IMG/VR virus record: IMGVR_UViG_3300027859_000006
Span: 44,152-108,151 of that record
DNA from: a virus
DNA: 64,000 bases
Strand: one strand, 5' to 3'
Shown piece after piece: positions 6,103-48,077 of the stretch. The position numbers and the translations under genes were made by a program. The notes beneath the pieces are model-generated. The model was not told where the DNA came from. It saw nothing but the letters and a program-made list of their open reading frames with translations, and ran no database searches. Position 1 is the first letter of the stretch, and the number at the start of each line of letters is the position of its first letter.

Positions 6103-6593
6103 TAACTACTCCCTAACTTGCTAATTAGCTTGTCATACGAAGACTCTTCAATAACATAGTTGTTATACTGATTATTAGTCTGGTTCTTAATTTGAACTTC
6201 TTCTTTCTTACGCTCAAGTTCTAGAAGCTCTTTCTTAACCTTAGCCTCGAATTCAAGCTCTTTCATCTTCATAGCGTGCTGTGCTTGCAGCAGGTCTAGA
6301 ATATCTTTACTAGAGCCCATGTCGGTATCGTCCATTTCTTCTAGTTTCTTAGCAATAAGTTCATCCATGACTCTAGCCATCTTAAAGCGATTTCGGAATC
6401 CTGCTTCGTGATAAATTCTATCTACATATTCCTTGATCTCACGCTTATTTAATTCTGATTGTAAGTCCGCTACTGGAAGCCCTAGCTCTAGACTAGTCTT
6501 CTCTATATCGCCACCAGACATTATATATGCCTCGGCTACTTTTAACCCTTCCGGACTTAACTTTTCTGGGTCTATTAATTCTGTACTGCTCAT
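6102..6593 (-). CDS. terS: Terminase small subunit
   Basis: LSPEGLKVAEAY, GFRNR, SSKDILD; directly upstream of terL. Confidence 0.85.
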   Translation of the reverse strand: MSSTELIDPEKLSPEGLKVAEAYIMSGGDIEKTSLELGLPVADLQSELNKREIKEYVDRIYHEAGFRNRFKMARVMDELIAKKLEEMDDTDMGSSKDILDLLQAQHAMKMKELEFEAKVKKELLELERKKEEVQIKNQTNNQYNNYVIEESSYDKLISKLGSS

Positions 6594-34741: not shown

Positions 34742-36124
34742 TTATAAGTAGTCGTACTTAGGTATGCACAGCGCGGATTTGACCATGTCTAGAGGTGTTA
34801 CTACTTCCCCAGACAATACTGTCTTCATAACCGCAGCTGAGAAGCCCGATACTAAAACAGTACCATTCTGTCCAGCTCTAACTGGTACGTTATCACGTCT
34901 GCTAGCAATGTTCCAGAACACTAATTTAGGAGCAGTAAAACCTGAGGCTTCAAAGTCTCTAATAGTTTTCTCAGATACAGGGCTTGAACCGCAACGGTCA
35001 AATTCCATATCAGACAGTACGATTAACGCATCTGGCAAATCTTCATCAGTCAGTCCGTTAGCAACGGCTCTATCCAGGATAGTTTGCATAGCGCGATTAA
35101 TATCCGTATTCATGCCCCAGTGCGCTCTACTTAGGTTACGAAGACGAGTTTCTAAGGTATCACCACAAAGTTCTTGCATTCTAGGACGTTCAGAGAACGT
35201 TAAGAACTGGTCTTTGAACACTCCTTTGTTTCGCTCGGCTAGGTAAATACCAAGAGACATTGCTACTTGCATAGTAGTGAATTTAGTATTCCCAGCTGCA
35301 ACACACATAGACGCTGAAACGTCTATCATAGGCAAAAAGCTGCCTTCGCCCACGTAATCTGGCAAACCTTTCCATTGAGCTTCTCGAAGCTGCCCTGAAC
35401 TATTTGCTACAATCTCATAAGGATATAGCACGCTAGAGTTAACCGTATCCTTGCCCTTTTCAAGGGCGGATAGATACTCTTCGTATCTTTCACCGTCATT
35501 GCGAGCAAACGCTTTGCGATAAAGTAACTGAGCACGAGAAGGCAACTTACCGTACTCAATTTGATCCCACTCACGATTACACATCTGAGTCTCAACTACG
35601 TTAGTAGTTTCAACTAACAGCTTGCGCAAAGTTTTTGGCGGAACGCCAAGGTGACGGCGCACCTCTCCGAAGATTGTACCTTTACGAGGCATCCACTTAG
35701 CTGCTAGAGCATTTTTCTCAACCGCAATAGCGCGTAGCCATACGGTGATAGCGTGTGCCTTAATGTCTCCACCAAGTTCAATTACTGGGATTAGGTCGTC
35801 GAAGCGACCAATCTCAGGGATTTTTGATACAATGGCTTTACCTGTTTCTAGGTCGACCAGTTTAAGGATTTGTGTAATCCATTGGCGGAAGTGTTTACGT
35901 TCACCGTAACCACCACGAGGGTCACGTGTATACAGAGCTAAGCGAATAGCCAAGTCTGGGTTTTCTTTAAAAGCCTGTAAGAATTCACCTACTAGGTTAG
36001 TTCCACGGCTAGAACCTGCACGACCGAATAAGTCTACTAGGAATGAACCTGATGTAGAGTTTGTTACTGCTCTATTCTCTGTAAATGAGTTAGCGTGCGT
36101 CATTGCGTTAAATAGTTTGTTCAT
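34742..36124 (-). CDS. DUF2828 / TROVE(Ro60)-like protein with C-terminal vWA domain
   Basis: TEN.A, RD.RGG.GER, GR.DDL, AKW.PR, VE..MC..W, LYPYEI, MIDAS DVSAS, SDMEFD, FWN, SGFS. Confidence 0.88.
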   Translation of the reverse strand: MNKLFNAMTHANSFTENRAVTNSTSGSFLVDLFGRAGSSRGTNLVGEFLQAFKENPDLAIRLALYTRDPRGGYGERKHFRQWITQILKLVDLETGKAIVSKIPEIGRFDDLIPVIELGGDIKAHAITVWLRAIAVEKNALAAKWMPRKGTIFGEVRRHLGVPPKTLRKLLVETTNVVETQMCNREWDQIEYGKLPSRAQLLYRKAFARNDGERYEEYLSALEKGKDTVNSSVLYPYEIVANSSGQLREAQWKGLPDYVGEGSFLPMIDVSASMCVAAGNTKFTTMQVAMSLGIYLAERNKGVFKDQFLTFSERPRMQELCGDTLETRLRNLSRAHWGMNTDINRAMQTILDRAVANGLTDEDLPDALIVLSDMEFDRCGSSPVSEKTIRDFEASGFTAPKLVFWNIASRRDNVPVRAGQNGTVLVSGFSAAVMKTVLSGEVVTPLDMVKSALCIPKYDYL

Positions 36125-36682: not shown

Positions 36683-36759
36683 ATTGTTTTCCTCATTTCT
36701 TAATATGTGTATATTATACGTTGAAATATGTTGTTTTGCAAATCTTTTTTAAAGTTATT

Positions 36760-36835
36760 TGGGGTGACTGACGGGGTTCGAACCCGCATAATCTAGAATC
36801 ACAGTCTAGGACATTTCCAAATCTGCCACAGCCAC
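36760..36835 (-). tRNA. tRNA-His(GUG)
   Basis: Cloverleaf; CTAGA-CTGTGAT-TCTAG; CCA. Confidence 0.92.
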
Positions 36836-36941
36836 ACTAAATAACTCTAATCACCGTACCGAGAAAGTGTACAAAGCTTTCTCTATGATTTTTTGTTACT
36901 CTGTCTTACCAGAGTAGGTACAGATACGGGAAAGAGCTTTC

Positions 36942-37011
36942 GGGTTTTGGTAGTACTCCAGACCCGCCGGAAGTTCTCCAGCGAAGGGGAATTGAACCCC
37001 TTACCTAACCC
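36942..37011 (-). ncRNA. Circularly permuted tRNA-like module (T arm - capped acceptor - D-like arm), YrlA-like topology
   Basis: GGGTT / AGGGG-TTCAATT-CCCCT / TCGCTGG-AGAACTT-CCGGCGG / D-like hairpin / AACCC. Confidence 0.55.
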
Positions 37012-37342
37012 TATTTAGGAGTGAGAGTACGAAAGAGATAGCTAGTCTCGTTCATGGGAGGATCAATCCCTAATTACTACACTCCATATAACCACTCAAT
37101 TATATGGAGTGTCTCTGGCGGCTTCTCACACCGATTTTATACAGACCCAGAGACTGCCTGACCGCGTTCCTGCGGCAGTGGGATACTTTATATAACAAAA
37201 GTAACAAAACTTGACACGTTTAAGTGAAAGTGAAAGTGCCCAAGACCTTGGAATTTTATACTGGATTCCAACAGTACCACTCTACTACATCTAGGGCGAG
37301 ATGGCGTAGTTCCGCTACGCTCGGGAGATTTTATTCTGTTAG

Positions 37343-37648
37343 TCAACCGTGCTCTTCTTCGTTGTAAACTTCTACTTCGTAGACCAGCTCTCCTGTAGCG
37401 TCTTCGTATCCTTCAACTTCTAGGTCTTCTAACTCTTCTTCAGTGTACTCGTCTTCGCAGATTGGAGTTCCGATAGTATCCAAGTCTCCGAAAGCATCCT
37501 CATCTTGGTACATGCCGTACATTTCGGCGTTATCGATTGAGTACTGACGAGCAAGCTCCATTGCCGCTTCTTCGTCTTTCGCCTCTAAAATACCTTCGTC
37601 GTCACAGCCTGCGAAGCCAGTTCCAACTTTGTAGTAATACTTAATCAT
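37343..37648 (-). CDS. Highly acidic protein
   Basis: Start MIKYYY after promoter cassette; very D/E rich. Confidence 0.7.
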   Translation of the reverse strand: MIKYYYKVGTGFAGCDDEGILEAKDEEAAMELARQYSIDNAEMYGMYQDEDAFGDLDTIGTPICEDEYTEEELEDLEVEGYEDATGELVYEVEVYNEEEHG

Positions 37649-39304: not shown

Positions 39305-39432
39305 TGGAGCAGAGAGAAGGAATCGAACCTCCGCCAATCTTTTATGAGAAGAAAGCTAAATAGTTGCTGCAAGTATTCTTCCAAACAGAATACCTTGTTT
39401 GCTGTATTATGCTACCACTACACCATCTCTGC
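39305..39432 (-). ncRNA. tRNA-like RNA with anticodon arm replaced by ACAGCAA/stem module
   Basis: Acceptor GCAGAGA/TCTCTGC, D arm, GGAGG-TTCGATT-CCTTC, CCA; ~70-nt insert. Confidence 0.75.
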
Positions 39433-46406: not shown

Positions 46407-46530
46407 CAGAGTAGTTTGATTTTTAAGGACTTTTAACTGTCCAGTCTAATAACACTTTAACGGTGAGACCAATACACCGCCGTACTTTTACAGTACCTAT
46501 ACATTAGATTTTGTTTGCTGTAACTACTCT
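46407..46530 (-). ncRNA. Stem+ACAGCAA RNA copy A
   Basis: AGAGTAGT-TACAGCAAA...ACTACTCT-G. Confidence 0.7.
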
Positions 46531-46627: not shown

Positions 46628-46683
46628 CAGACTGCTTTTTTATTTTCACCCATTGAAATTTTAAAAGTTGCTGTTAGCAGTCT
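46628..46683 (-). ncRNA. Stem+ACAGCAA RNA copy B
   Basis: AGACTGCT-AACAGCAAC...AGCAGTCT-G. Confidence 0.7.
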
Positions 46684-47435: not shown

Positions 47436-47498
47436 CAGGCTGCATTATATTGGTTTTTGATTAGCAGTCAAATAATACAATGTTGCTGTTAGCAGCCT
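47436..47498 (-). ncRNA. Stem+ACAGCAA RNA copy C with Ser(GCU) anticodon stem-loop
   Basis: AGGCTGC-TAACAGCAAC...TTTGA-CTGCTAA-TCAAA...GCAGCCT-G. Confidence 0.7.
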
Positions 47499-47666: not shown

Positions 47667-47744
47667 CTGGTTACTATTGTTGACGCTTCTTAAACGTCCG
47701 TTTCTTGATGTTGGTAAGAAAATAGTATTTGCTGTAAGTAACCA
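47667..47744 (-). ncRNA. Stem+ACAGCAA RNA copy D
   Basis: TGGTTACT-TACAGCAAA...AGTAACCA-G. Confidence 0.7.
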
Positions 47745-47983: not shown

Positions 47984-47990
47984 ATTAAAT

Positions 47991-48067
47991 TGGTTCAGCT
48001 GACGGGAATCGAACCCGCTTACGCAACACTGCGTCTAGGGTGAAAACCTAGTGTCGACATCGGCTGA
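47991..48067 (-). tRNA. tRNA-Glu(UUC)-like, D-armless with long variable arm
   Basis: CTAGG-TTTTCAC-CCTAG; 9-nt D replacement; CCA. Confidence 0.65.
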
Positions 48068-48077
48068 GTTGTAAATT

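What the first reader, a model, noticed from the sequence alone, without database searches (positions are those of the whole stretch)
36942..37011. YrlA-topology permuted tRNA mimic ~0.8 kb from the Ro60-like gene
Seen (minus strand, in order): GGGUU, T arm (AGGGG-UUCAAUU-CCCCU), 7-bp acceptor closed by a loop (UCGCUGG-AGAACUU-CCGGCGG, including G3:U70), D-like hairpin, AACCC. There is no CCA. Established: YrlA RNAs have this T-acceptor-D order with a capped acceptor. The canonical Ro-binding bulged helix is not evident, so Y-RNA status is inference.
Basis: partly seen in the sequence, partly recalled or inferred. Interest (0 to 1): 0.72.

Follow-up and report, generated by a model that had tools for sequence, protein, structure and literature searches.

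The report
Closed-end tRNA top-half mimic in phage
A T5-like phage carries, inside a conserved 0.5-kb noncoding RNA region next to tRNA-His and 0.8 kb upstream of a Ro60-shaped gene, a tRNA-derived T arm joined to a loop-capped acceptor helix; it has the layout of bacterial Y-RNA tRNA mimics but lacks their D arm and their protein-binding handle.

Summary
The core observation holds. On the minus strand, 37001-36985 is a textbook T arm. It is followed directly by a 7/7-bp helix closed by a 7-nt loop (36984-36964). There is no CCA, and the element is bracketed by GGGUU/AACCC.

The "D-like hairpin" is only 3 bp, is no better than chance, and is not conserved.

The neighbouring gene (DUF2828+DUF7788) folds like Ro60. 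In many unrelated phages this gene family sits beside well-formed permuted tRNA-like RNAs: a stem, an ACAGCAA motif, then T arm, capped acceptor and D arm. A covariance model built from those RNAs scores them 58-70 bits. It scores this element 17.5 bits and skips the D arm. Rfam YrlA gives no hit.

The ACAGCAA handle is absent at this locus. It occurs elsewhere in the window, in four tRNA-cluster spacers and in a tRNA-shaped RNA at 39305-39432.

Two close relatives keep the T arm and the capped helix, with one compensatory pair. In both, the element is a divergence hot spot within a block that is 98% conserved.

Verdict: this is a real, tRNA-derived, YrlA-topology module, and a D-armless variant. 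Y-RNA (Ro-bound) status is unsupported. The function is inferred, not shown.

The parts
36942..37011 (-). Whole element: a permuted, D-armless tRNA-like module made of outer stem, variable-loop-like AGGUA, T arm, capped acceptor helix, a 17-nt variable segment and the closing strand of the outer stem
   Evidence: Sequence read. MFE folds. My covariance model R1 scores it 17.5 bits. It is conserved in L010 and L091.
36985..37001 (-). T arm AGGGG-UUCAAUU-CCCCU, with the G53-C61 pair and the U54/A58 positions in place
   Evidence: The stem is invariant in the relatives. Their loop is UUCGACU, still a canonical T loop.
36964..36984 (-). Acceptor-like 7-bp helix UCGCUGG/CCGGCGG closed by the loop AGAACUU, with no CCA
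   Evidence: The relatives pair 6/7, with one compensatory G-C to A-U pair, two one-sided changes and a mismatch at position 4.
36947..36963 (-). D-replacement segment GUCUGGAGUACUACCAA, which is variable and has no supported D stem
   Evidence: R1 skips the D arm here. The ARAGORN shuffle control gives 27%. The sequence is unalignable in L091.
36836..37330 (-). Conserved, densely structured noncoding block that contains the element and ends at tRNA-His
   Evidence: Fold z-score is -4.05. Outside the element it is 98.4% identical in two relatives whose flanking genes are 69-97% identical. The consensus fold has 6 compensatory pairs. There is no Rfam hit.
36760..36835 (-). tRNA-His(GUG), immediately 3' of the noncoding block
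   Evidence: ARAGORN and Rfam.
34742..36124 (-). Ro60-fold gene (460 aa; Pfam DUF2828 plus DUF7788, a vWA-like domain), 818 nt downstream of the element
   Evidence: Pfam. AlphaFold model with pLDDT 91.8. Foldseek finds Ro60/Rsr/phiLo Ro60 at E 1e-8 to 1e-6 and TM 0.5-0.68.

Best explanation
The element is a tRNA-derived top half: a T arm stacked on a 7-bp acceptor helix whose end is closed by a loop. It is mounted on a short G-C-clamped stem, and a short variable loop replaces the D arm.

It is one peripheral, fast-evolving module of a roughly 0.5-kb structured noncoding RNA. That RNA lies on the same strand as tRNA-His and directly 5' of it, so co-transcription with tRNA-His is likely but not shown.

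Its layout is that of the tRNA-like domain of YrlA-type Y RNAs, and of the permuted tRNA-like RNAs that accompany this Ro60-fold gene family in other phages. It is most likely a diverged offshoot of those RNAs that has lost both the D arm and the stem-ACAGCAA handle.

Shown: the anatomy, its conservation in two relatives, the family context, and the absence of a handle.

Inferred: it acts as an acceptor/T-arm minihelix mimic that engages tRNA-recognising factors. RNase P cutting in the cap loop 5' of C36970 is the most testable candidate. TruB/TrmA acting on the T loop, or a host tRNA-binding factor, are others. The Ro60-like protein probably does not use it as a docking site. In this phage that role fits the separate ACAGCAA-handle RNAs better.
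For: - The T arm plus a directly following 7/7 capped helix is unique in the window and rare in shuffles, at 0.04 per window.
- Both relatives keep the T-arm stem unchanged and keep a canonical T loop. They keep the helix at 6/7 despite 3+3 substitutions in L091, one pair of which is compensatory.
- The A after the 3' strand and the 7-bp helix length are the same in all three phages.
- My motif scan found canonical permuted tRNA-like cores 38 times on the DUF2828 gene's strand and once on the opposite strand, in 168 loci. Most have CAGCAA within 60 nt upstream.
- Those canonical cores score 58-70 bits with model R1.
- R1 aligns the window element through GGU, the T arm and the cap, but not through the D arm.
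- R1 finds no other non-tRNA candidate anywhere in the 108-kb genome.
- The surrounding block folds with z = -4.05 and is 98.4% conserved.
- M. smegmatis YrlA, which has a 7-bp acceptor, is cut by RNase P (PMC4201824).
Against: - Only three closely related sequences are available, so covariation is not significant (172 of 500 shuffles reach the observed score).
- In L010 and L091 the helix can extend by 2 bp into the loop, leaving a UGU triloop. That would hinder RNase P.
- The element is the least conserved part of the block (84% and 70% identity, against 98.4% for the 5' part of the block). This also fits relaxed constraint.
- No promoter or terminator was found that would bound a transcript.
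- There are no expression data.
- The R1 score of 17.5 bits is no higher than hits to the T arm of an ordinary tRNA alone.
Confidence: 0.45

Rival explanations
1. It is a working Y RNA of the phage Ro60-like protein. The protein would bind the bulged outer stem (GGGNUAGGUA / UAYCNAACCC, followed by CGAA), and the tRNA-like part would be the effector module.
For: - It is on the same strand as a Ro60-fold gene and 818 nt upstream of it.
- This gene family has YrlA-like RNAs within about 0.1-5 kb in many phages.
- The order of T arm then capped acceptor is the YrlA order.
- GGUA can pair with UACC/UAUC in all three phages, extending the outer stem to about 9 bp with internal mismatches.
- A conserved CGAA follows the stem. 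A CGAA motif was used to find phiLo Yrl1 and Yrl2 (PMC12135203).
Against: - There is no Rfam YrlA hit.
- The region has no GNCGAAN0-1G and no CAGCAA.
- The single CGAA lies on the 3' side, and about two are expected by chance in 510 nt.
- The family's handle is present on five other RNAs in the same window.
- The D arm, one of the two most conserved parts of YrlA, is missing.
Confidence: 0.2
2. It is a decaying relic of a tRNA gene, or of an ancestral YrlA-like RNA, with no function of its own. It persists because it lies inside a conserved transcript.
For: - It is a divergence hot spot, with 11/70 and 21/70 differences. The flanking noncoding DNA shows 7/425 and 15/424 (Fisher p = 3e-6 and 9e-11).
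- The D arm is degenerate, and position 4 of the helix is mismatched in both relatives.
- G3:U70 is not conserved.
- The window holds other odd tRNA-derived pieces.
Against: - The substitutions avoid the T-arm stem (0 of 10 positions), AGGUA and GGG/CCC. They concentrate in the cap and the D segment.
- The cap still pairs 6/7 after 6 changes, with a compensatory pair.
- About 55% divergence over roughly 38 nt in L091, in phages that are otherwise 92-97% identical over most of this region, looks like a cassette exchange that kept the hairpin, not slow decay.
Confidence: 0.2
3. It is the tRNA-like domain of a circularly permuted (two-piece) tmRNA-like RNA. It would be charged with alanine once the cap loop is removed.
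For: - The best weak Rfam match is cyano_tmRNA positions 62-105, which cover a T arm plus a capped acceptor (14.2 bits).
- The window copy has G3:U70.
- There is no D stem, as in a tmRNA tRNA-like domain.
- The T arm plus UCGCU resembles bacterial tRNA-Ala.
Against: - ARAGORN finds no tmRNA, permuted or not, even at 80% thresholds.
- G3:U70 is lost in both relatives.
- There is no CCA.
- The only downstream reading frame changes with an indel between relatives, and the region shows compensatory stem changes instead.
- Only about 106 nt remain before tRNA-His.
Confidence: 0.03
4. It is a chance hairpin next to a stray T-arm-like sequence, or a copied 3' half of a host tRNA gene of the attP type.
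For: - 3.5% of shuffled windows contain such a composite.
- The segment from GGGUU to the A after UCGCUGG has the form of a tRNA 3' half.
- T arm plus UUCG occurs in 116 bacterial contigs. Of the 96 that ARAGORN typed as tRNAs, 53 are tRNA-Ala.
Against: - It is conserved in two relatives with helix-preserving changes.
- No bacterial tRNA matched more than 28 of 35 positions, and none matched the last two acceptor bases.
- The phage is T5-like, and I saw no integrase in the region examined.
Confidence: 0.05

Closest known systems
YrlA-type bacterial Y RNAs (Rfam RF02553; Chen et al. 2014, PMC4201824)
   Same: The order is T arm, then an acceptor-like stem closed by a loop. The T arm looks like that of a tRNA. 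The element lies on the same strand as a Ro60-fold gene and within 1 kb of it. Like M. smegmatis YrlA, it has a 7-bp acceptor helix.
   Different: It has no conserved D arm and no V hairpin. It has no GNCGAAN0-1G motif and no long Ro-binding stem. It gets no RF02553 hit at any score listed. The neighbouring protein is DUF2828/DUF7788, not a Pfam TROVE protein.
Permuted tRNA-like RNAs next to DUF2828 genes in other phages: Escherichia phage mio (a Felixounavirus), Mycobacterium phage Nicholas, Cronobacter phage S13 and many IMG/VR contigs.
   Same: The T arm is preceded by GGU(C/A) and followed at once by a 7-bp capped helix of free sequence. The element lies on the same strand as the gene and typically within 1 kb upstream of it.
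   Different: The canonical members add a UA-GCUC-AGUGGUA-GAGC D arm, a V hairpin, and a closing stem with ACAGCAA on the 5' side and GUUU at the 3' end. They score 58-70 bits with R1. The window element scores 17.5 bits.
Precursors of circularly permuted two-piece tmRNAs (Rfam cyano_tmRNA RF01851)
   Same: In the gene, a T arm is followed by an acceptor stem whose two strands are joined by an intervening loop. There is no D stem. The window copy has G3:U70.
   Different: There is no tag reading frame, no pseudoknots and no CCA. G3:U70 is not conserved. ARAGORN finds nothing.
Non-tRNA stable RNAs of phage tRNA clusters, namely T4 species 1 and 2 RNAs and the T5 stable RNAs (cited from my own knowledge, not checked here)
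   Same: They are small structured RNAs encoded among phage tRNA genes, with tRNA-like ends and unknown function.
   Different: No sequence or model comparison was possible with the tools at hand.

Membership tests
YrlA (Rfam RF02553) | Reaches the family covariance model, whose gathering score is 69 bits | tested here: not met
   No RF02553 match at E<=10 in a 5-kb search or a 201-nt search. As a positive control, the phage Nicholas RNA scores 37.9 bits.
YrlA (Rfam RF02553) | A tRNA-like T arm followed by a loop-closed acceptor-like stem (AS) | tested here: met
   The helix is 7/7 bp with a 7-nt loop.
YrlA (Rfam RF02553) | A conserved D arm 3' of the AS stem, with GG in the loop | tested here: not met
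   Only a 3-bp UGG/CCA pairing is possible. R1 skips the D arm. 27% of shuffled D segments pass ARAGORN. The register differs in each relative.
YrlA (Rfam RF02553) | The GNCGAAN0-1G motif on the 5' strand of a closing Ro-binding stem | tested here: not met
   The pattern is absent from 36836-37345 on the minus strand.
YrlA (Rfam RF02553) | Bound by the Ro60 orthologue in vivo | not testable with these tools
   Needs immunoprecipitation or CLIP.
DUF2828-linked stem-ACAGCAA permuted tRNA-like RNAs (defined here) | A closing 7-9-bp stem with (A)CAGCAA after the 5' strand and GUUU after the 3' strand | tested here: not met
   There is no CAGCAA in the 510-nt region. The handles lie at 39399, 46515, 46668, 47483 and 47729.
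DUF2828-linked stem-ACAGCAA permuted tRNA-like RNAs (defined here) | The core of T arm, capped acceptor and D arm scores like the seed members with model R1 | tested here: not met
   The element scores 17.5 bits. Canonical members score 58-70 bits and junctions between tandem tRNAs score 23-50 bits.
DUF2828-linked stem-ACAGCAA permuted tRNA-like RNAs (defined here) | Same strand as a DUF2828/DUF7788 gene and close to it | tested here: met
   The element is 818 nt upstream on the same strand.
Permuted two-piece tmRNA | A tRNA-like domain with conserved G3:U70 and CCA, plus a tag reading frame and pseudoknots | tested here: not met
   ARAGORN finds no tmRNA. G3:U70 is present only in the window. 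There is no CCA.
Ro60 / TROVE-vWA proteins (the neighbouring gene) | A HEAT-repeat ring plus a vWA domain fold | tested here: met
   The model has pLDDT 91.8 and pTM 0.90. The twelve best Foldseek matches listed are all Ro60, Rsr or phiLo Ro60 chains. There is no sequence-level PDB hit, and Pfam names the protein DUF2828+DUF7788.

The most novel reading that the evidence does not exclude
The closed-end, D-armless acceptor/T-arm minihelix, with its rapidly exchanged cap and D segment, is a dedicated decoy or adaptor for a host tRNA-recognising factor, for example a tRNA-targeting defence nuclease or a processing enzyme. It would be displayed by a new large structured phage RNA and would work alongside the phage Ro60-like RNP. 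The hot-spot divergence would then reflect an arms race rather than decay.
Probability: 0.12. Interest if true: 0.75.

Novelty: new variant of a known kind. Interest (0 to 1): 0.5.

Why it matters
Phage Ro60-like proteins are only starting to be studied. A Thermus phage Ro60 binds Y-like RNAs and host PNPase (PMC12135203). A Ro60-like protein of the Felixounavirus Bas63 counters a defence system, and its authors guessed that some of the neighbouring genes annotated as tRNAs are Y RNAs (bioRxiv 10.1101/2024.10.10.617714).

This locus shows that one T5-like phage lineage keeps a stripped-down tRNA mimic beside such a gene, while the presumed protein-binding handle sits on other RNAs. If that holds, the handle and the tRNA-like effector of Y RNAs are separable modules. 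It would also give a minimal natural construct for asking what the tRNA-like part does.

If the element is only a relic, the locus is of little interest in itself. The wider RNA family seen in other phages is the more valuable lead.

Tried and rejected
- Rfam, all 4227 families. Gathering thresholds on the whole window, and E<=10 on 5 kb and on 201 nt, gave only tRNAs and weak noise. There was no YrlA, GOLLD, ROOL, tmRNA or intron hit.
- tmRNA, permuted or not. ARAGORN was negative down to 80% thresholds.
- Ordinary or intron-split tRNA. No matching 5' acceptor strand or D arm lies upstream, and ARAGORN calls nothing here.
- Copy of the phage's own tRNA-Ala. Its T arm and acceptor are different.
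- Host tRNA 3' half. 116 bacterial contigs share the T arm plus UUCG, and 53 of the 96 typed as tRNAs are tRNA-Ala. None matches beyond 28 of 35 positions.
- A conserved feature of T5-like phages upstream of tRNA-His. Vibrio phage Thalassa and Proteus phage 1 have no T arm there. blastn of the region against 50,697 phage records matched only tRNA-His.
- Covariation on three sequences is not significant.
- A crude regex for stem plus CAGCAA handles also fires in coding DNA, so I used it only as a locator.

Full report
**What is there.** The window is part of a 108-kb IMG/VR virus record. It carries a T5-like cluster of 21 tRNA genes on the minus strand. Its tRNA-His resembles those of Demerecviridae phages of Vibrio and Proteus.

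Reading the minus strand from 37011 to 36942 gives, in order:
- GGGUU
- AGGUA
- a T arm, AGGGG-UUCAAUU-CCCCU
- UCGCUGG, the loop AGAACUU, then CCGGCGG
- a 17-nt segment
- AACCC

The helix after the T arm is 7/7 paired, including G3:U70 and G7:U66. It is closed by the loop, and no CCA follows it.

**Is it more than chance?** I scanned for a 5-bp stem with a UUCRANN loop followed directly by a fully paired 7-bp hairpin. The scan finds exactly one such site in the real window. It finds 0.04 per dinucleotide shuffle, and 3.5% of 200 shuffles have at least one. The MFE of the 91-nt piece alone is unremarkable (z = -0.98). The evidence therefore lies in the motif, not the folding energy.

**The D arm.** The best D pairing is 3 bp (UGG/CCA) with no GG in the loop. 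I opened the cap and closed the outer stem with an artificial loop. ARAGORN then called the window copy a tRNA in standard mode, and the two relatives only in its permissive mitochondrial mode. Each of the three used a different D register. When only the 17-nt D segment was shuffled, 82 of 300 constructs were still called tRNA. When the outer strand was shuffled as well, 1 of 300 was called. The D-like hairpin is therefore not evidence. The outer stem, the T arm and the cap carry the signal.

**Relatives.** Only two related lineages could be fetched: IMG/VR 3300037991_002562 (L003, L010) and 3300001091_000003 / JGI11931J13222_1000001 (L002, L091). Their Ro60-like proteins are 93-96% identical to the window's.

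Both keep the element:
- The T stem is unchanged.
- The T loop becomes UUCGACU, which is still canonical.
- The capped helix keeps 6 of 7 pairs. One pair changes compensatorily (G-C to A-U), two change on one side only, and position 4 is mismatched in both relatives.
- G3:U70 becomes G3-C70.

With three sequences the covariation is not significant.

The element is a divergence hot spot. It shows 11/70 and 21/70 differences, against 7/425 and 15/424 in the flanking noncoding DNA (Fisher p = 3e-6 and 9e-11). The changes avoid the T stem, AGGUA and GGG/CCC. They fall in the cap and the D segment, which in L091 differ at about half their positions. That looks like an exchanged cassette that kept the hairpin.

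**Surroundings.** The element lies in a 0.5-kb stretch with no sizeable ORF (36836-37330) that ends at tRNA-His.
- The stretch folds well below shuffled controls (z = -4.05).
- Its 319-nt part 5' of the element is 98.4% identical in both relatives. The part 3' of the element is 98.1% and 90.5% identical. Neighbouring genes are 69-97% identical.
- Its consensus fold contains six compensatory pairs. Three lie in two hairpins outside the element, at about 37312-37296 and 36912-36890.
- It matches no Rfam family.
- No sigma-70-like promoter was found upstream of it. One lies after tRNA-His, at 36742-36713.

**The gene.** The ORF 34742-36124 (460 aa) matches Pfam DUF2828 and DUF7788. It has no sequence match in the PDB. 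Its AlphaFold model (pLDDT 91.8) matches Ro60, D. radiodurans Rsr and the Ro60 of Thermus phage phiLo at E 1e-8 to 1e-6. "Ro60-like" is therefore justified by fold.

**The family context, found here.** I scanned 168 loci around homologues of this gene, drawn from GenBank phages, IMG/VR and metagenomes.

The scan found well-formed permuted tRNA-like cores, each a T arm, a capped 7-bp helix and a canonical D arm. There were 38 on the gene's strand and 1 on the other strand, outside annotated tRNAs.

Full-length members share one design:
- a closing stem, for example AGGAUAC/GUAUCCU
- ACAGCAA after the 5' strand
- a small V hairpin
- GGUC, then the T arm, the capped acceptor and a UA-GCUC-AGUGGUA-GAGC D arm
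- GUUU at the 3' end

Examples lie next to the gene in Escherichia phage mio (a Felixounavirus), Mycobacterium phage Nicholas and Cronobacter phage S13. Rfam YrlA hits only the Nicholas RNA, below threshold (37.9 bits).

A covariance model of 25 cores (R1) scores members 58-70 bits and junctions between tandem tRNAs 23-50 bits. Pairing in the realigned set is 96.8%, and all seven cap pairs covary. That figure is partly circular, because I selected the seeds for pairing.

I found no paper describing these RNAs. The closest is a remark that some of the genes annotated as tRNAs beside the Ro60-like gp130 of phage Bas63 may be Y RNAs (bioRxiv 10.1101/2024.10.10.617714).

**How the window element compares.** R1 gives it 17.5 bits. 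The model aligns GGU, the T arm and the cap, and skips the D arm. Nothing else in the 108-kb genome scores except tRNA junctions. The 510-nt region has no CAGCAA and no GNCGAAN0-1G.

Following a lead from earlier notes of this scan, I confirmed that the handle exists elsewhere in the window:
- Four spacers of the tRNA cluster have a stem, ACAGCAA, a cargo segment and the closing strand followed by GU (46407-46530, 46628-46683, 47436-47498, 47667-47744).
- A tRNA-shaped RNA at 39305-39432 carries the handle, with its strands swapped and capped, in place of the anticodon arm. Its D and T arms are of the same type as in phage mio.

The likely docking sites for the Ro60-like protein in this phage are therefore those RNAs, not the element under study.

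**Alternatives examined.**
- Permuted tmRNA. The best weak Rfam match (14.2 bits) is the T arm plus capped acceptor of cyanobacterial permuted tmRNA. The window copy has G3:U70 and resembles the tRNA-Ala 3' end. However, ARAGORN finds no tmRNA, G3:U70 is not conserved, and the downstream frame is not conserved.
- Host tRNA 3' half, or chance. See the rival explanations.

**Conclusion.** The element is a real, tRNA-derived, permuted module with YrlA topology. It fails the tested defining features of YrlA and of the phage family (D arm, handle, model score). I file it as a D-armless variant of that kind and as part of a larger structured RNA. Its mechanism is inferred. It probably presents an acceptor/T-arm minihelix to tRNA-recognising factors. 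RNase P cleavage in the cap loop, as shown for M. smegmatis YrlA (PMC4201824), is the first thing to test.

This prevented me from reaching the relatives with 47-65% identical proteins, which would settle the question.

Noticed in passing
L006:6431-6573; L007:5523-5668; L004:6158-6309; L032:4316-4461; L037:4095-4375; L011:52-465, and others: A widespread phage RNA family sits next to DUF2828/DUF7788 (Ro60-fold) genes. Its design is: closing stem, ACAGCAA, V hairpin, T arm, capped 7-bp acceptor, canonical D arm, closing strand and GUUU. Some loci have two copies in tandem. The motif scan found 38 on the gene's strand and 1 on the other. Only the Mycobacterium phage Nicholas copy is touched by Rfam YrlA, below threshold. 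I found no paper describing the family.
   Followed up: partly
window 39305-39432 (-): A tRNA-shaped RNA has acceptor GCAGAGA/UCUCUGC, a D arm GUGU-AGUGGUA-GCAU, a T arm and an encoded CCA. Its anticodon arm is replaced by about 70 nt that hold the family's handle in swapped order (GGUAUUCU-GUUU, a loop, then AGAAUAC-UU-GCAGCAA), plus a second ACAGCAA. Rfam calls it a tRNA with a 67-nt insert. ARAGORN misses it.
   Followed up: partly
window 46407-46530, 46628-46683, 47436-47498, 47667-47744 (-): Four spacers between tRNA genes each fold as a 7-9-bp closing stem with (U)AACAGCAA after the 5' strand and GU(U/C) after the 3' strand. Their cargo is not tRNA-like.
   Followed up: partly
window 36836-37330 (-): This 0.5-kb block has no sizeable ORF and is densely structured (z = -4.05). 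Its part 5' of the element is more conserved among three phages (98.4%) than the flanking genes. It includes a 15-bp hairpin at about 37109-37076 and hairpins with compensatory changes. It matches no Rfam family.
   Followed up: partly
window 47984-48077 (-): An unannotated tRNA-like piece lies between tRNA-Asp and tRNA-Lys. It has the T arm GCGGG-UUCGAUU-CCCGU followed by CAGCUGA-ACCA. ARAGORN does not call it.
   Followed up: no
window 36713-36742 (-); L002 about 1440-1470: A near-consensus sigma-70-type promoter (TTGCAA, 17 nt, TATAAT) lies just after tRNA-His and ahead of the small ORFs and the Ro60-like gene. In L002 the same promoter sequence lies just before the small ORFs, after an extra ORF that is inserted between tRNA-His and the promoter.
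   Followed up: no
L006:7081-7353: Escherichia phage mio has weak Rfam tmRNA matches (22.1 and 15.4 bits) inside its tRNA array, downstream of the Ro60-like gene.
   Followed up: no
L004:5896-6138 and 6203-6264: Cronobacter phage S13 has two over-long annotated tRNAs (121 and 113 nt, one labelled tRNA-OTHER) just after the Ro60-like gene. It also has a permuted tRNA-like core whose cap loop contains ACCA, which suggests processing into two pieces.
   Followed up: no
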